Shown here: piece by piece, positions 3,997-11,182 of the stretch
Layout of the letters: every line of letters starts with the position of its first letter
Numbering within the stretch: the first letter of the stretch is position 1
Assembly (NCBI GenBank): GCA_035687365.1
Contig: DASRXU010000226.1
Span: forward strand, 4,911-68,910
DNA length: 64,000 bases
Source: Planctomycetaceae bacterium
GTDB lineage: Bacteria > Planctomycetota > Planctomycetia > Planctomycetales > Planctomycetaceae
Reading direction: 5' to 3'
Translations under genes and position numbers: made by a program
The notes under the pieces: generated by a model
Told to the model about the DNA's origin: nothing
Databases searched by the model: none
Seen by the model: the letters and a program-made list of their open reading frames with translations, nothing else

Positions 3997-5850
3997 CTAT
4001 TGACCGTGGATGCTCTTCATGGCCTCCATCTTTTTCTCGAGTTCTGCTTTAAGCGCTTCGAGGTTGAAGCTCGCCCCTTTTTGCATGGGCGGGAACTCGA
4101 CAAGGGTTTGGGCCGCCTTGCCGATCTCCTGCTGCGCGAAGACAAACCGCCAGAACTCGTAAGCGAACCAGTTGTAGTAGGCGATGGACCCATTGTCCTT
4201 GCCGTTGTACATGCCAGTCCGTTCGAACGGGTCGAGGCGGAGATTGGTCAGAATCGGCCAATCGACCTTCAACGTCGCACCCAGCCAGCCGCCGGGCTGA
4301 TCGGTGAAGCGGTACTTGTAGTCGTCGATGCGCACTGCACTCATGGTCGTTTCGGTGAGGTAGAAGATCTCGTGGCGCTTCGACGGACCTTTGCCGAGGA
4401 GCATGTCCAGCTGGTTGTAGCCATCCAAATGGACTTTGTAGGTCCGATCGCCGAGTTGCTTACCCTGCTTGAGTTCTTCGACGATGTTGGGATTTCCAGC
4501 CGCCGCGACGAACGTCGGGAACCAGTCCAACCCGGAGACGATCCCGTTCTCGACCTTGCCCGCCGGCACCTTGCCCGGCCAGCGGATCATGGCAGGAACC
4601 CGGAAGCCTCCCTCGAGTGCCGTGCCCTTACCGCCGGCGAAAGGCGTTTGCCCCCCATCCGGCCAGGTGAAATTCTCGGCACCGTTGTCCGTGCTGAAGG
4701 CGATGATCGTGTTGTCATCGAGGCCGTTTGTTTGCACATACTTCATCACGGCGCCGACCACGTCGTCGAGTTGCGCCATGCCCGCTTCCTGAATGCTCCA
4801 GCCGTTCTCCGGCGTGCGCATCGCCTCGTATTGCGGCGAGAGATGCGTCACGACGTGCATACGGGTCGGGTTGAGCCATAAAAAGAACGGCTTGTCGTCC
4901 TTTCGAGATTTGTCGAGAAACTTGATCGCGTGGTCGAGAATTTCGGCGTCGACGGTCTCCATCCGCTTCGGATAAAGCTCGCCGGCGTCTTCGATTTTCT
5001 GCTTGCCGATTTTGCCCCAGCGGGGTTCGACCGTCGGATCGTCGACGTCAGTGGCCCAGCAATGCAGCATGTTGCGCGGCCCGACGGTGGCTTTGAGCGC
5101 CGGCGGGTAGTTGCGATGCGACGGGTCTTCCATCGCATCGAGGTGGTACAGGTAGCCGAAGAATTCGTCGAAGCCGTGCACCGTCGGCAGAAACGGATTT
5201 CTGTCGCCGAGATGGTTCTTGCCGAACTGGCCCGTGGCATAGCCCATCGACTTCAGCGCGGTGGCGATGGTCGGCGCTTCTGCGGGCATTCCCAGCGGAG
5301 AGCCGGCCTGGCCCACGGTGGTCAGGCCCGTGCGGATCGGCAACTCGCCGGTAATGAAGTTGGCCCGACCTGCCGTGCAGCTCGCCTCGGCGTAGTAGTC
5401 GGTGAACATCATCCCTTCATGAGCGAGACGGTCGAGATTGGGAGTCTTGCCGGCCATCATGCCACGGTGGTAGGCGCCAATGTTAAACCAGCCGATGTCG
5501 TCACCCATGATGAAGATGATGTTCGGCTTTTTGCCCGAGGCCGGTTGTTCCTGCGCCGCAGCCGTGTTGGCCATCGCCAAGAGCCGTCCTTTGGCGGAGC
5601 CCTGTGCGCAACAGGTGCCGGCGGCGGCCTTCAAATCGGCTACCGTAATGGACCCACGCAATGGGGCGACATCGGCGCGGGATCCGACCCCAGGGATCGA
5701 AGCGGCAGCAGTCTTTTCGGCCACGCGTTGTGGGGTCGGCGCGGCGTCGGCATCGCGGGGTACGCCCAGCCGGCTTGACGCCGCTGCGTAGCCGAGCAAC
5801 CCGCCGATCGCCAACACGCCGATCATCTGCGCTCTGGCGCTCTTCACCAT
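3997..5850 (-). CDS. Sulfatase (S1 family) with N-terminal membrane anchor/signal; active-site motif C-T-A-G-R
   Basis: 617 aa. KKPNIIFIMGDDIGWFNIGAYH, SCTAGRANFITGELPIRTGL (Cys codon 5377-5379), GQFGKNHLGD, FSTDNGAE. Paralogous to 7229-9112, 9242-11182 and 31902-33836. Confidence 0.9.
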   Translation of the reverse strand: MVKSARAQMIGVLAIGGLLGYAAASSRLGVPRDADAAPTPQRVAEKTAAASIPGVGSRADVAPLRGSITVADLKAAAGTCCAQGSAKGRLLAMANTAAAQEQPASGKKPNIIFIMGDDIGWFNIGAYHRGMMAGKTPNLDRLAHEGMMFTDYYAEASCTAGRANFITGELPIRTGLTTVGQAGSPLGMPAEAPTIATALKSMGYATGQFGKNHLGDRNPFLPTVHGFDEFFGYLYHLDAMEDPSHRNYPPALKATVGPRNMLHCWATDVDDPTVEPRWGKIGKQKIEDAGELYPKRMETVDAEILDHAIKFLDKSRKDDKPFFLWLNPTRMHVVTHLSPQYEAMRTPENGWSIQEAGMAQLDDVVGAVMKYVQTNGLDDNTIIAFSTDNGAENFTWPDGGQTPFAGGKGTALEGGFRVPAMIRWPGKVPAGKVENGIVSGLDWFPTFVAAAGNPNIVEELKQGKQLGDRTYKVHLDGYNQLDMLLGKGPSKRHEIFYLTETTMSAVRIDDYKYRFTDQPGGWLGATLKVDWPILTNLRLDPFERTGMYNGKDNGSIAYYNWFAYEFWRFVFAQQEIGKAAQTLVEFPPMQKGASFNLEALKAELEKKMEAMKSIHGQ

Positions 5851-5967
5851 TATTATTTTTCTCCAAATGTAGGACTCTGAATGATCGGGCTGGAAACACT
5901 CCGACCCGACTGCCCCAACTTAGTGCGGCCTCTCTTGGCTGCTCCGTGGCTCGTGTGCGTGCCTTCT

Positions 5968-9112: not shown

Positions 9113-9241
9113 GCTGTCCTCCAGTTGAAAGTTCGAGAAGGATTCGGCTCAATGCGTTGGGCCGAATGCCAAAACTTCGTCGCCCGCCACGGGGGGCACC
9201 CCAAAGGGCGCCCGCGGTGAAATTATTTACCTCTTCGGTGA

Positions 9242-11182
9242 TCAGTCGCTCGAATGGCTTGCCTGCTGCACCTGCTTCAGAATGCCGTCGAGGTTGTAGG
9301 TTTCCGGCGCCTGGAGCGGCGGAAACTCCTTGTAAGACATGAGGTGCTTGTACCAGAGCTGCTGACCGATCGGCAGCATGTTCCAGTCGTATTGGAATGC
9401 AGTCACGGGGCCGCCCAATGCGCCGCCCATTCCCATGGCCGTCTTCTGGTCGATTCCGACGGCCTGCTCAAACGGGTCCCGTTTGATGTTCTGGACCAGC
9501 GTGAAGTGAAAAGGAACGAGCGGCATGATCCAGCCAGCCGGTCCCGGCTGCGACATGTTGTAATACATCTTCCAGTTCTTGTAGCGGACCGCGGAAGGTG
9601 TGGCACCTGAGAAGTAGAAGAAGTAATCGCGCGCCGACTTTTCCGACCGTCCTTCGAGATAGGCGAGTTGGTTGACGCCGTCGAGCGTCGTTTTGACGAT
9701 GCCCGGATACTGTCCGGCTTCGATCTGCTTCTTCAGCTCGTCGCCCTTCGCGCCACCGGCCGCTTCAACGAGCGTCGGCAGCCAGTCGAGAGCCGCGAAG
9801 AGTTGGTTCTTGACCGTGCCGGGCTTGATGTGGCCCGGCCAGCGAACGACGCAGGGCGCGCGGTAGCCGCCTTCCCAAGCTTCGCCCTTCTGGCCCTTGA
9901 ACGGCGTCACGCCGCCGTCCGGGAAGCTAATCGCTTCGGCACCGTTATCGGTCGTGAAGACGACGATCGTGTTGTCGAGCTGACCCATGTCTTCGAGCTT
10001 CTTGAGGACATAGCCGATGTTGTCATCCATCTGCTTCATGCCGGCTTCGTTGACGCCCCAATCTTTGCCGCCGGGCTCTCCGACCATCGCCATGTACTTG
10101 TCGGACAAGACGGTGGTGACATGCATGCGGGCCGGGTTGTACCAGACGAAGAACGGCTTGTTGGTTTTCTTGGGGTCGTTGCGATCGAGGAAATCAATGA
10201 CGTGGGACGAGATCTCCTCGTCCACAGTCTTCGAGCGTTCGAGCGTCAGCGGGCCTTCGTCTTTGCCCATCTGTTGCGCCGCGGTGCCGTCACCCGATTT
10301 CATCCAAATGATTGGACGTGGGACGGCCATGCAGACGCCATCCTTAGGGTCGATCGCGCCCGGAGGATCCGGAATTCCGGGAATTGGCTCAACCTTCATA
10401 GGCGGCGCGATGCCCTGCACGGTCGGAGTCTTGTTGATGTCTGGGAAGCTCACTTGCTGCATGGCGTCCAGGTGATACAGGTAGCCCCAATATTCCTGGA
10501 AGCCGTGCGCCGTCGGCAGGGACGCCGGATGGTCGCCCAAGTGGTTTTTCCCAAACTCACCGGTGGAGTAGCCTAGGTCCAACAGAAACTTGGCGATGCA
10601 AGGCGTGCCGGGGCGTAAGTAAGACGGGCTGCCGGGCAACTGCGGCGGGATCATGCCGGTGCGCAGTGGATACATGCCCGTGATGAAGGCGTTGCGTCCC
10701 GACGTGCAGCTCTGCATGGCGACATAGTCCATGAAGATTGCACCCTCGTTCGCGATGCGGTCGATGTTCGGTGTTTCGCCAACCATCAGGCCGCGGTGGT
10801 AACAGGCCGGCTGCATCCAGCCGATATCGTCGCCCATGATGAACAGGATGTTGGGCTTTTTGCCTTCGGCTTGAAGGTTGACCAATTTGGCGTCGACGTT
10901 GTTGACCGCGACGAGTTGCCCGCGAGCAGAGCCCGTGGAACAGCAGGTGTGTCCCGCAGTCTTCGACGTTCCGCTGGGCTGCGCGACGGCCTTTTGGATC
11001 GTGAGTGCCATCGGGGTTGAGGACTGGCGAGAAACGCCCGCGTGTTTTTCACTCACCTTTTGTAGAACTGGCTCGGCTTTCGCGCTGTGGAACACGTCCA
11101 TGCGACTCGACGCGGCGACATAGCCGGCCAGTCCACCCATCGCCAATACGGCGATCATCTGGGCTCGAGGACTTCTCAGCAT
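9242..11182 (-). CDS. Sulfatase (S1 family), N-terminal anchor; motif C-T-S-G-R
   Basis: 646 aa. KKPNILFIMGDDIGWMQPACYH, QSCTSGRNAFITGMYPLRTGM (Cys codon 10706-10708), GEFGKNHLGD, FTTDNGAE. Confidence 0.9.
   Translation of the reverse strand: MLRSPRAQMIAVLAMGGLAGYVAASSRMDVFHSAKAEPVLQKVSEKHAGVSRQSSTPMALTIQKAVAQPSGTSKTAGHTCCSTGSARGQLVAVNNVDAKLVNLQAEGKKPNILFIMGDDIGWMQPACYHRGLMVGETPNIDRIANEGAIFMDYVAMQSCTSGRNAFITGMYPLRTGMIPPQLPGSPSYLRPGTPCIAKFLLDLGYSTGEFGKNHLGDHPASLPTAHGFQEYWGYLYHLDAMQQVSFPDINKTPTVQGIAPPMKVEPIPGIPDPPGAIDPKDGVCMAVPRPIIWMKSGDGTAAQQMGKDEGPLTLERSKTVDEEISSHVIDFLDRNDPKKTNKPFFVWYNPARMHVTTVLSDKYMAMVGEPGGKDWGVNEAGMKQMDDNIGYVLKKLEDMGQLDNTIVVFTTDNGAEAISFPDGGVTPFKGQKGEAWEGGYRAPCVVRWPGHIKPGTVKNQLFAALDWLPTLVEAAGGAKGDELKKQIEAGQYPGIVKTTLDGVNQLAYLEGRSEKSARDYFFYFSGATPSAVRYKNWKMYYNMSQPGPAGWIMPLVPFHFTLVQNIKRDPFEQAVGIDQKTAMGMGGALGGPVTAFQYDWNMLPIGQQLWYKHLMSYKEFPPLQAPETYNLDGILKQVQQASHSSD

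What the first reader, a model, noticed from the sequence alone, without database searches (positions are those of the whole stretch)
3997..11182. FGE-linked sulfatases carry Ala or Ser instead of Pro in the formylglycine motif (CTAGR, CTAGR, CTSGR)
Read directly from the sequence: SCTAGRANF (5365-5379), SCTAGRANF (8657-8671) and SCTSGRNAF (10694-10708). The unlinked paralog has SCTAGRAAF (32382-32396). Only the edge sulfatase has the canonical CSPTR (702-716). Established knowledge: aerobic SUMF1-type FGEs recognise C-x-P-x-R, with Pro and Arg as key determinants. C-x-A-x-R motifs are usually discussed in connection with radical-SAM anSME maturases. No anSME is visible here, and the only maturase in the block is an FGE. 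I do not recall C-x-S-x-R as a described maturation motif at all. Either this FGE has relaxed specificity, these enzymes are matured elsewhere, or they use an unmodified Cys.
Basis: partly seen in the sequence, partly recalled or inferred. Interest (0 to 1): 0.6.

Follow-up and report, generated by a model that had tools for sequence, protein, structure and literature searches.

The report
Non-proline sulfatase motifs beside an FGE
Three exported sulfatases next to a formylglycine-generating enzyme carry Cys-Thr-Ala/Ser-Gly-Arg instead of the textbook Cys-x-Pro-x-Arg; these are fixed signatures of large, widespread families that this enzyme probably activates, which extends known biochemistry.

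Summary
CTAGR (5365-5379, 8657-8671), CTSGR (10694-10708), CTAGR (32382-32396) and CSPTR (702-716) are all read as stated, in intact PF00884 sulfatases with every catalytic residue conserved.

The motifs are family signatures. CTAGR occurs in 119 of 120 close homologues and in all readable orthologues from 80 species of many phyla, where all four Ala codons are used. CTSGR occurs in 118 of 119 homologues of the third enzyme.

No bona fide anSME is found in this 92%-complete genome. Only 6 of 33 related genomes carrying the family have one.

Orthologues of the window's FGE lie beside CTAGR sulfatases:
- in 7 planctomycete genomes of 5 families;
- in 18 of 80 loci from other species, usually with the same HAD hydrolase.

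One closed 3.3-Mb genome has a CTAGR enzyme as its only sulfatase. It sits next to HAD and FGE, and that genome has no anSME candidate.

Ala at this position is already documented (SulfAtlas: 369 of 4058 sequences; pattern [PA]). M. tuberculosis FGE is reported to convert CTAGR.

Maturation by the linked FGE is therefore the best reading (about 0.75), and it is largely known. The conserved Ser variant and the FGE-HAD-sulfatase module are modest additions.

The parts
3997..5850 (-). Exported type I sulfatase A (617 aa), active-site motif S-C-T-A-G-R (CTAGR at 5365-5379)
   Evidence: Translation. Pfam PF00884, E 7.9e-54. Motif coordinates verified. 119 of 120 homologues share the motif. Catalytic residues invariant.
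5968..6738 (-). Bestrophin-like membrane protein between the sulfatase genes
   Evidence: Pfam PF14023, E 5.6e-34. Homologues recur beside CTAGR sulfatases in 7 of 80 species loci.
7229..9112 (-). Exported type I sulfatase B (627 aa), motif S-C-T-A-G-R (CTAGR at 8657-8671)
   Evidence: Translation. PF00884, E 2.1e-50. Motif coordinates verified.
9242..11182 (-). Exported type I sulfatase C (646 aa), motif S-C-T-S-G-R (CTSGR at 10694-10708)
   Evidence: Translation. PF00884, E 1.2e-43. 118 of 119 homologues carry CTSGR. It aligns with CTSSR of PDB 7aj0.
11360..12121 (-). Exported protein with weak 2H-phosphoesterase resemblance, 8 bp downstream of the HAD gene
   Evidence: Weak PF13563 hit, below cut-off. 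Signal peptide visible. Orthologues (52-63% identity) sit in the same module in G161, Nitrobacter sp. (L101) and L157.
12130..13161 (-). Exported HAD-IB-type hydrolase, the most constant partner of the CTAGR sulfatases
   Evidence: PF12710, E 8.6e-12. Signal peptide. PDB 4ovy, E 1.9e-88, function undetermined. Adjacent to CTAGR sulfatases in 6 planctomycete genomes (5 of the 7 fetched FGE-linked loci, plus G095) and in 21 of 80 species loci.
13200..14414 (-). Membrane-anchored, outward-facing copper-type formylglycine-generating enzyme (an ATG at 14366 is a likely start)
   Evidence: PF03781, 302.5 bits. T. curvata FGE 6s07 E 2.5e-86 and S. coelicolor 6muj E 1.3e-82, with the Cys pair [11 protein letters not shown] aligned. 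N-terminal hydrophobic anchor after a basic stretch. One of only two PF03781 proteins in the genome that have the Cys pair.
15387..18302 (+). Divergent two-component system (PAS/HisKA_3 kinase 15387-17630 and REC-GerE regulator 17661-18302), a probable regulator of the block
   Evidence: Pfam. Homologous kinase/regulator pairs recur beside the sulfatase(-FGE) modules in at least 8 of 80 species loci and in L078/L079.
31866..33836 (+). Unlinked paralogue, sulfatase D (656 aa), motif S-C-T-A-G-R (32382-32396). It is the closest window relative of the FGE/HAD-adjacent sulfatases of other planctomycetes.
   Evidence: PF00884, E 9.5e-47. Motif. 50-57% identity to the syntenic sulfatases.
3..1154 (-). 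Edge sulfatase of another subfamily with the canonical C-S-P-T-R (702-716), in the same co-directional block
   Evidence: PF00884, E 3.5e-40. Motif. Orthologues with CSPTR also sit in FGE/CTAGR clusters elsewhere (L088, L095, L116).

Best explanation
The three sulfatases, and the paralogue at 31866-33836, are functional formylglycine-dependent enzymes. Their CTAGR and CTSGR motifs are genuine maturation motifs. The motif cysteine is most likely oxidised to formylglycine by the co-encoded copper- and oxygen-dependent FGE (13200-14414).

Shown here:
- The motifs are fixed family signatures under purifying selection.
- All catalytic residues are intact.
- The FGE has its two copper-binding cysteines.
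- FGE, HAD hydrolase and CTAGR sulfatase form a gene module conserved across phyla.
- No bona fide anSME is found in this genome or in most genomes that carry the family.

Inferred:
- The sulfatases have Sec-type signal peptides or anchors, and the FGE has an N-in membrane anchor. Conversion would then take place on the outer face of the cytoplasmic membrane, on the still-unfolded, freshly exported chain, much as in the eukaryotic ER.
- The same FGE must also serve CxPxR sulfatases, such as the edge enzyme. It would therefore be tolerant of Pro, Ala and Ser at +2, as reported for M. tuberculosis FGE with CTAGR.
For: 1. Motif conservation.
- CTAGR occurs in 119 of 120 close homologues, in 29 of 30 planctomycete loci at 42-69% identity, and 87 times in 80 species loci. 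Every readable SulfA/B orthologue motif there was CTAGR, with no Pro among them; 11 sulfatase hits in those loci gave no motif to the script.
- All four Ala codons are used.
- CTSGR occurs in 118 of 119 homologues of sulfatase C.

2. Catalytic competence. D117, D118, C158, R162, K211, H213, H332, D388, N389 and K408 are invariant.

3. The FGE is genuine. Best PDB matches are 6s07 at E 2.5e-86 and 6muj at E 1.3e-82, with the Cys pair conserved.

4. Linkage.
- FGE orthologues (47-62% identity) lie within 0.1-1.7 kb of CTAGR sulfatases in 7 planctomycete genomes of 5 families.
- They lie within 8 kb in 18 of 80 species loci, including Nitrobacter, Bradyrhizobium, Acidobacteria, Eremiobacterota and Obscuribacter.
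- Chance expectation is about 0.4% per 16 kb (my estimate, from 2 true FGEs in 7.4 Mb).
- In L078, another organism has a two-component system, then CTAGR, CTSGR and CTAGR sulfatases, then HAD and FGE.

5. G155, a closed 3.3-Mb genome (99% complete), has a single PF00884 hit. It is a QSCTAGRAAF sulfatase next to HAD and FGE, and the genome has zero anSME candidates.

6. anSME.
- None is above cut-off in the own genome. The best radical-SAM candidate scores higher as a PapB-type peptide maturase and has no sulfatase neighbour.
- anSME is above cut-off in only 6 of 33 carrier genomes and in 0 of 5 named carriers.
- All 16 readable sulfatases of the genome are Cys-type; none is Ser-type.

7. The organism has three heme-copper oxidase genes, so O2-dependent chemistry is plausible.

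8. Literature.
- M. tuberculosis FGE converts CTPSR and CTAGR; human FGE converts only CTPSR (PMC12054377, citing Boschanski 2021).
- Ala replaces Pro in 369 of 4058 sulfatases, and the pattern is written [PA] (PMC5066984).
Against: - No biochemical datum exists for this FGE or these proteins; everything rests on genomic association plus in-vitro data for a different FGE.
- Linkage is frequent but not universal: 62 of 80 species loci show no FGE within 8 kb.
- Pseudomonas iridis and Hyphomicrobium facile carry CTAGR sulfatases but no true FGE and no anSME. Some other route, or no maturation, must serve the family there.
- The own genome is a 620-contig MAG, 92% complete, so an unassembled anSME cannot be excluded.
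- No experimental evidence was found for FGE conversion of a Ser-containing motif. PsFucS1 (CTSSR) was largely unmodified when made in E. coli.
- Related genomes are not independent samples.
Confidence: 0.75

Rival explanations
1. A third, still unidentified maturation system, neither FGE nor anSME, converts the non-proline motifs. The linked FGE would serve only the CxPxR sulfatases of the block and genome.
For: Pseudomonas iridis and Hyphomicrobium facile carry 73-74% identical CTAGR sulfatases. Yet they have no anSME above cut-off and no FGE-family protein with the catalytic Cys pair: the P. iridis hit lacks it, and the H. facile hit has EgtB-like architecture. In G070 and G095 (closed genomes) no P0004-like FGE was found at E<=1e-30 and no anSME. 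An FGE- and anSME-independent activity in E. coli is established knowledge (Benjdia et al. 2007, from memory, not read here). It fits the partial activity of PsFucS1 produced in E. coli.
Against: This does not explain why FGE orthologues are so often placed directly beside CTAGR sulfatases. It also does not explain G155, which keeps an FGE when its only sulfatase is a CTAGR enzyme. A bacterial FGE is reported to convert CTAGR.
Confidence: 0.12
2. A radical-SAM anSME matures them. It would be either the SPASM-domain protein on contig C282 or a true anSME lying in the unassembled 8% of the genome.
For: CxAxR is classically assigned to anSME (PMC2459300). M. mazei AtsB converts CTAGR (PMC8068374). 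The C282 ORF matches TIGR03942 over 323 residues at 114 bits. The genome is incomplete. 6 of 33 carrier genomes do have anSME.
Against: The C282 protein is far below the anSME cut-off (114 against 349 bits). It scores higher for PapB-type peptide maturases and sits between a TPR protein and an acyltransferase-like gene, not near sulfatases. 27 of 33 carrier genomes lack anSME, and some closed genomes have zero candidates. The genome has no Ser-type sulfatase that would require anSME. The sulfatases are Sec-exported, whereas anSME is cytoplasmic (inference).
Confidence: 0.07
3. The enzymes work with an unmodified cysteine, or are promiscuous phosphoesterases. In that case the non-proline motif reflects escape from maturation.
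For: The constant partners are a HAD hydrolase and a 2H-like protein, both phosphoester-type folds. Unmodified sulfatases can retain some activity: the title of PMC6189696 says so, though the paper was not read here. PsFucS1 with mostly unmodified Cys showed activity.
Against: The Arg that stabilises FGly and the full FGly-sulfatase catalytic set are invariant. The conserved FGE linkage would have no purpose. FGly-dependent phosphonate monoester hydrolases also need FGly (PMC5066984).
Confidence: 0.05
4. The non-proline paralogues are catalytically dead binding proteins.
For: None beyond the unusual motif.
Against: All catalytic and metal-binding residues are invariant across 10 diverse members. 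Amino-acid conservation is extreme (59-89% identity across phyla) while codons vary freely.
Confidence: 0.01

Closest known systems
Type I (formylglycine-dependent, SulfAtlas S1) sulfatases with Ala at the +2 position of the catalytic-site pattern [CS]-x-[PA]-x-R
   Same: Sulfatases A, B and D fit the updated SulfAtlas catalytic pattern position by position (A-S-C-T-A-G-R-A-N-F-I-T-G). They have the PF00884 domain and all catalytic residues.
   Different: Sulfatase C has Ser at +2 and Gln at -2, both outside that pattern. SulfAtlas counts every non-Pro, non-Ala residue at under 1% each. Here Ser is fixed in a large clade.
PsFucS1 (PDB 7AJ0), fucoidan-active sulfatase of SulfAtlas subfamily S1_13
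   Same: It is the best solved relative of sulfatases A and C (E 2.8e-57 and 6.8e-50). It carries C-T-S-S-R, a natural Ser at +2, and was active after expression in E. coli.
   Different: It is only a moderately close relative from a marine Pseudoalteromonas. It has no reported FGE linkage, and its Cys was mostly unmodified in the crystal. The substrate of the window's enzymes is unknown.
Prokaryotic aerobic copper FGEs (M. tuberculosis Rv0712, S. coelicolor 6MUJ, T. curvata 6S07)
   Same: The window's FGE has the same domain, the two Cu(I)-binding cysteines and the conserved Trp-Trp (W192/W193). M. tuberculosis FGE is reported to accept CTAGR as well as CTPSR.
   Different: It has an N-terminal membrane anchor, and its orthologues have signal or lipoprotein peptides. 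It also has a roughly 25-residue Pro-rich insertion. Its strand reads G-S-L-V-F where T. curvata FGE has W-S-F-V-F. That T. curvata strand contains Phe86, which contacts the substrate Pro, and Trp84, which contacts the Arg (PMC6676471). This register is my own alignment, supported only by a moderate-confidence model.
anSME / AtsB radical-SAM sulfatase maturases acting on CxAxR (Clostridium perfringens, Methanosarcina mazei)
   Same: They act on the same pentapeptide class, and M. mazei AtsB converts CTAGR.
   Different: No protein in this genome reaches the anSME family cut-off, and most genomes carrying the sulfatase family lack one.

Membership tests
Type I formylglycine-dependent sulfatase (Pfam PF00884 / SulfAtlas S1) | Full-length sulfatase domain above the curated cut-off | tested here: met
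   PF00884 scores 150-183 bits against a cut-off of 25 for A, B and C, and 160 bits for D.
Type I formylglycine-dependent sulfatase (Pfam PF00884 / SulfAtlas S1) | [quoted passage not shown] | tested here: met
   A and B (ASCTAGRANFITG) match at every position. D has the [CS]-x-[PA]-x-R core (SCTAGRAAFL; its full pattern was not checked). C (QSCTSGRNAFITG) fails at -2 (Gln) and +2 (Ser). The pattern is from PMC5066984; the sequences are.
Type I formylglycine-dependent sulfatase (Pfam PF00884 / SulfAtlas S1) | Metal-binding Asp-Asp and Asp-Asn, plus the FGly-stabilising Arg and the Lys/His catalytic residues | tested here: met
   D117, D118, C158, R162, K211, H213, H332, D388, N389 and K408 (P0001 numbering) are invariant in alignment A1, which holds the four window paralogues and six relatives. 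They are aligned to arylsulfatase A positions.
Type I formylglycine-dependent sulfatase (Pfam PF00884 / SulfAtlas S1) | Formylglycine actually present at the motif cysteine; sulfate-ester hydrolysis | not testable with these tools
   This needs LC-MS/MS of the active-site peptide and an activity assay.
SulfAtlas subfamily S1_13 | Placement in the S1_13 clade by the SulfAtlas HMMs or tree | not testable with these tools
   The only indication is that the sole solved S1_13 member, 7aj0, is the best PDB hit for A and C. No SulfAtlas models were available.
Aerobic copper-dependent FGE (SUMF1 type, PF03781) | FGE-sulfatase domain above cut-off, with close similarity to solved FGEs | tested here: met
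   302.5 bits against a cut-off of 23.3. 6s07 E 2.5e-86, 6muj E 1.3e-82, human 1y1e E 6.8e-82.
Aerobic copper-dependent FGE (SUMF1 type, PF03781) | Two active-site cysteines (C-x4-C) that bind Cu(I) | tested here: met
   [15 protein letters not shown] aligns with GGSFLCHESYCNRYR of T. curvata FGE. The pair is invariant in 19 FGEs found next to CTAGR sulfatases. Only 2 of the 15 PF03781 matches in the genome have it.
Aerobic copper-dependent FGE (SUMF1 type, PF03781) | O2- and Cu-dependent conversion of Cys to FGly in CTAGR/CTSGR substrates | not testable with these tools
   There is only indirect support: M. tuberculosis FGE converts CTAGR (PMC12054377). No datum was found for CTSGR.
anSME (radical-SAM anaerobic sulfatase maturase, TIGR03942) | A protein in the genome scoring above the family cut-off (349 bits) | tested here: not met
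   The best hit is 114.8 bits (C282), which scores 140.9 bits for PapB-type maturases. The second hit is 24.7 bits. The genome is 92% complete, so absence is not proven.

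The most novel reading that the evidence does not exclude
The exported FGE clade found beside these sulfatases has a remodelled substrate groove. An aliphatic Leu/Met/Val stands where T. curvata and human FGE place the Phe that packs against the substrate proline. The Trp/Asp that holds the arginine is missing, and there is a Pro-rich insertion. 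This clade would have co-evolved with non-proline motifs. Ala, or Ser, would then be actively selected rather than merely tolerated: Pro is one nucleotide away but appears in none of 94 CTAGR orthologues read at the codon level. The pair would form a natural, partly orthogonal FGE/tag system that gates maturation to the periplasmic side.
Probability: 0.2. Interest if true: 0.55.

Novelty: new member of a known kind. Interest (0 to 1): 0.3.

Why it matters
Reviews still repeat that FGE handles CxPxR and anSME handles CxAxR. The evidence here shows something different. A very large CTAGR sulfatase family, common in aerobic soil and freshwater bacteria of many phyla, is genomically tied to FGE and mostly occurs without anSME.

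This matters in three ways:
- Annotation: presence of an anSME should not be inferred from CxAxR motifs.
- Heterologous production: co-express the cognate FGE.
- Aldehyde-tag engineering: CTAGR is already used as a second tag, and CTSGR with this FGE clade could be another.

Two items seem to have no description in the literature I could search. One is the CTSGR clade. The other is the conserved module of FGE, HAD hydrolase and sulfatase, with or without the 2H-like protein and the two-component system. Both are incremental rather than surprising.

Tried and rejected
1. The C282 radical-SAM/SPASM protein as a hidden anSME. Rejected: 114 bits against a cut-off of 349, a better PapB score, and unrelated neighbours.

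2. Dead paralogues. Rejected by the invariant catalytic residues.

3. Primary papers on FGE motif tolerance could not be read:
- Rush & Bertozzi 2008;
- Dierks 1999;
- Roeser 2006;
- Appel & Bertozzi 2015.
What I say about them is from memory and carries no weight in the argument.

4. Full-text searches for 'C-X-A-X-R', CXSXR, CTSGR, CTSSR and CTASR returned nothing relevant on a Ser motif. This is a weak negative.

5. Mapping the Pro-contact residues of T. curvata FGE (Phe86/Trp109) onto the window's FGE is unresolved. HMMER places the clade-specific insertion after the strand. My reading places it before, with GSLVF aligned to WSFVF. The AlphaFold model (mean pLDDT 64, pTM 0.73) shows 172-176 as a strand and 150-155 as a short helix, which favours my reading, but it is not good enough to settle the point. 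No residue-level structural alignment was available, so I did not run fold search.

6. FGE-sulfatase linkage in closed genome G095 could not be shown. The only FGE-family gene near its sulfatase-HAD pair is 14 kb away and 28% identical.

7. One extra contig look-up (P0033, L080) showed a lone CTAGR-family sulfatase with no FGE, HAD or second sulfatase within 10 kb.

Full report
**What is there.** Region 1-14414 is a co-directional minus-strand block. In transcription order it holds:
- a formylglycine-generating enzyme (FGE, 13200-14414);
- a HAD-type hydrolase (12130-13161, 38-bp gap);
- a small exported protein with weak 2H-phosphoesterase resemblance (11360-12121, 8-bp gap);
- sulfatase C (9242-11182);
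- sulfatase B (7229-9112);
- a bestrophin-like membrane protein (5968-6738);
- sulfatase A (3997-5850);
- an NTF2-like gene and a Gly-rich gene;
- an edge sulfatase of another subfamily (3-1154).

A PAS/HisKA_3 kinase and a REC-GerE regulator are transcribed divergently from the FGE. A fourth paralogue, sulfatase D, lies at 31866-33836.

The window is G000:C226:4911-68910, from a 7.36-Mb, 620-contig assembly that is 92% complete. Close homologues are labelled Planctomycetia or Gemmataceae.

**The motifs are family signatures.**
- Of the 120 best database homologues of sulfatase A, 119 carry AEASCTAGRANFITG.
- In a 300-genome sample of the phylum, 33 other genomes encode relatives at 42-69% identity. 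Of 30 loci read, 29 have SCTAGR and one has SCTPGR.
- A scan of species-representative genomes returned 80 loci at 55-82% identity. They come from Rhizobium, Bradyrhizobium, Mesorhizobium, Nitrobacter, Hyphomicrobium, Microvirga, several Pseudomonas species, Acidobacteriota, Eremiobacterota, Verrucomicrobiota, Myxococcota, Singulisphaera, Ca. Obscuribacter and even a Nitrososphaerota MAG.
- In these loci CTAGR was read 87 times. Every readable SulfA/B orthologue motif was CTAGR, with no Pro among them; 11 sulfatase hits gave no motif to the script.
- At the DNA level the Ala is written GCC 35, GCG 34, GCA 19 and GCT 6 times. The pentapeptide has 60 different encodings among 96. The residue is therefore held by selection even though Pro (CCN) is one substitution away.
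- Sulfatase C defines its own clade: 118 of 119 best homologues (71-89% identity) have CTSGR. More distant SulfC-like genes (66-73% identity) have CTAGR, so Ser and Ala interchange within the lineage.

**The enzymes look active.** Alignment A1 holds the four window paralogues and six relatives. In it the metal ligands (D117, D118, D388, N389), the nucleophile position C158, the FGly-stabilising R162, and K211, H213, H332 and K408 are all invariant. They align with the arylsulfatase A catalytic residues. The best solved relative of both A and C is PsFucS1 (7AJ0, SulfAtlas S1_13). Its own motif is CTSSR, visible in the alignments. It was active after production in E. coli, although the crystal showed mostly unmodified Cys (PMC8484680).

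**The maturase.**
- The 13200-14414 product is a genuine FGE. It scores 302 bits on PF03781. PDB matches are T. curvata FGE at E 2.5e-86, S. coelicolor at 1.3e-82 and human at 6.8e-82, with the copper-binding pair aligned ([11 protein letters not shown] against GGSFLCHESYC).
- Of the 15 PF03781 matches in the genome, only this one and one on the 4.5-kb contig C481 have the Cys pair.
- The protein starts with a basic stretch and one hydrophobic helix. Orthologues start with signal or lipoprotein peptides.
- The sulfatases, the HAD and the 2H-like protein all have Sec-type signal peptides or anchors. I infer that maturation happens outside the cytoplasm, on the exported unfolded chain.
- The genome has three heme-copper oxidase subunit I genes, so an oxygen-dependent enzyme is plausible.

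**Is there an anSME?**
- The best TIGR03942 match in the genome scores 114.8 bits against a cut-off of 349. That ORF scores higher as a PapB-type peptide maturase (140.9 bits). It lies between a TPR gene and an acyltransferase-like gene.
- All 16 readable type I sulfatases of the genome are Cys-type: 10 with Pro, 5 with Ala (three CTAGR, plus CSASR and CTASR) and 1 with Ser.
- Among the 33 planctomycete genomes that carry the family, only 6 have an anSME above cut-off. Several closed genomes returned no candidate at all.
- None of five named carriers has one: Nitrobacter sp. JJSN, Pseudomonas iridis, Singulisphaera sp. Ch08, Hyphomicrobium facile and Rhizobium sp. RCAM05350.

**Linkage.**
- Orthologues of the window's FGE (47-62% identity) were found in 20 of the 33 genomes.
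- In seven genomes of five families they lie 0.1-1.7 kb from a CTAGR sulfatase: G041, G155, G238, G094, G161, G096 and G182.
- tblastn with the window's proteins shows a recurring arrangement of FGE, HAD and CTAGR sulfatase, plus the 2H-like gene in G161.
- In the 80 species loci the FGE is within 8 kb in 18 loci (15 of 59 full-length loci). The HAD is present in 21, and the two-component system recurs.
- With two true FGE genes in 7.4 Mb, about 0.4% would be expected by chance (my estimate).
- A metagenomic contig (L078) has the whole set: kinase and regulators, then CTAGR, CTSGR and CTAGR sulfatases, then HAD and FGE. The FGE there is frameshifted; sequencing error is my guess.
- The clearest case is G155. 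It is a closed 3.3-Mb genome whose only PF00884 match is a QSCTAGRAAF sulfatase beside HAD and FGE, with no anSME candidate. There the only visible client for the FGE is a CTAGR enzyme.
- In G041 the same FGE sits next to a CTAGR, CTPTR, CTAGR trio. Here and in L088, L095 and L116, CSPTR enzymes share the cluster. The FGE is therefore expected to take both kinds of motif.

**Limits of the linkage argument.**
- It is not universal.
- Pseudomonas iridis and Hyphomicrobium facile have the sulfatase but no true FGE. The P. iridis PF03781 protein lacks the Cys pair, and the H. facile protein has EgtB-like architecture. Neither has an anSME.
- In G095 the sulfatase-HAD pair has no nearby canonical FGE.
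- Another maturation route, or none, must therefore exist for this family in some organisms. It cannot be excluded here.
- Related genomes are not independent, and the samples are partial.

**What is already known.**
- Carlson et al. 2008 state that FGE activates CXPXR and that anSME handles SXPXR and CXAXR (PMC2459300).
- The SulfAtlas paper reports Pro at this position in 87% of 4058 sequences. It is replaced mainly by Ala (369 sequences), with every other residue below 1%. It writes the catalytic pattern with [PA] and allows Gly at +3 (PMC5066984).
- Sulfatases A and B fit that pattern at every position, and D has the [PA] core. Sulfatase C does not fit (Gln at -2, Ser at +2).
- A 2025 review summarising Boschanski et al. 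2021 states that human FGE is specific for CTPSR, while M. tuberculosis FGE converts both CTPSR and CTAGR. This is exploited for dual labelling (PMC12054377; construct confirmed in PMC8909960).
- M. mazei AtsB also converts CTAGR (PMC8068374).
- The very pentapeptide seen here is therefore an established substrate of a bacterial aerobic FGE.
- I found nothing on a Ser-containing motif.

**A lead on specificity.** In the T. curvata FGE-substrate complex:
- the motif Pro packs against Phe86 and Trp109;
- the Arg stacks on Trp84 and bonds Ser290 (PMC6676471).

The Trp-Trp pair is conserved here (W192/W193). The 19 FGEs found beside CTAGR sulfatases share an invariant L..G(S/G)(L/M/V)VF.PP segment. 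I align it with the W-S-F-V-F strand of T. curvata FGE. This makes Phe86 a Leu/Met/Val and removes Trp84, with a Pro-rich insertion before the strand in the planctomycete members. HMMER aligns this region differently. An AlphaFold model of moderate quality (pLDDT 64, pTM 0.73) shows 172-176 (GSLVF) as a strand and 150-155 as a short helix, which is consistent with my register. This remains a hypothesis.

**Verdict.** The most likely mechanism is maturation of CTAGR and CTSGR by the linked, exported FGE (about 0.75). Rivals, with my confidence in each:
- an unidentified third system (0.12);
- an undetected anSME (0.07);
- function without FGly (0.05);
- dead paralogues (0.01).

The Ala variant and its acceptance by a bacterial FGE are known. 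The additions are the fixed CTSGR clade, the cross-phylum FGE-HAD-sulfatase module, and the demonstration that this CxAxR family is mostly anSME-independent. Interest is modest.

Two other first-reader notes of this scan describe the same block and the shared N-terminal/Cys-Cys motif. They agree with what I saw.

Noticed in passing
window 12130-13161 (-), with L071, L073, L075, L076, L164 and 21 of the loci L081-L160: An exported HAD-IB-type hydrolase is the most constant neighbour of CTAGR sulfatases, more constant than the FGE. Its closest solved structure is 4OVY, which has no assigned function. The pair also occurs where no FGE is nearby (G095). The shared substrate is unknown.
   Followed up: partly
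L103 (Pseudomonas iridis) and L105 (Hyphomicrobium facile); genomes G302 and G304: These aerobes carry 73-74% identical CTAGR sulfatases. Neither has an FGE-family protein with the catalytic Cys pair or an anSME above cut-off. This points to the still unidentified third sulfatase-maturation route.
   Followed up: partly
G070 and G095 (closed planctomycete genomes of the window's family): More than 100 first-look sulfatase candidates were seen. Yet no canonical FGE was found at E<=1e-30 with the window's FGE, and no anSME. Their best PF03781 matches are domains inside ORFs of 1367-1751 aa. I did not check whether those domains have the Cys pair.
   Followed up: no
window 3997-11182 (N-termini of the three sulfatases): The signal/anchor is nearly identical in all three (M..S.RAQMI.VLA.GGL.GY.AASSR). 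A conserved CCxxG(S/T)A(K/R) linker motif lies upstream of the catalytic domain. Only 11 of 242 collected homologues have the CC motif; most homologues have a short ordinary signal peptide instead.
   Followed up: partly
G000:C282:28215-29633 (L001:1159-2577): An orphan radical-SAM/SPASM protein of 472 aa is below every NCBIfam cut-off (best PapB-type, 141 bits). It lies between a TPR protein and an acyltransferase-like gene. It is probably a peptide maturase with an unknown substrate.
   Followed up: partly
L078:15300-16500: The FGE gene of this otherwise complete module (two-component system, three sulfatases, HAD, FGE) is split over three reading frames. Assembly error in a long-read MAG is my guess, but real decay is not excluded. 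In the sister contig L079 the FGE region is replaced by other genes.
   Followed up: partly
L044 (G170:C485): This is the one family member among 30 planctomycete loci with SCTPGR instead of SCTAGR. It is a natural Ala-to-Pro reversion and could serve as a comparison enzyme.
   Followed up: no
G000 genome-wide: Fifteen PF03781 (FGE-sulfatase) matches were found, but only two have the copper-binding Cys pair. The rest are FGE-like domains in large multidomain proteins of 490-1849 aa and should not be counted as sulfatase maturases.
   Followed up: partly
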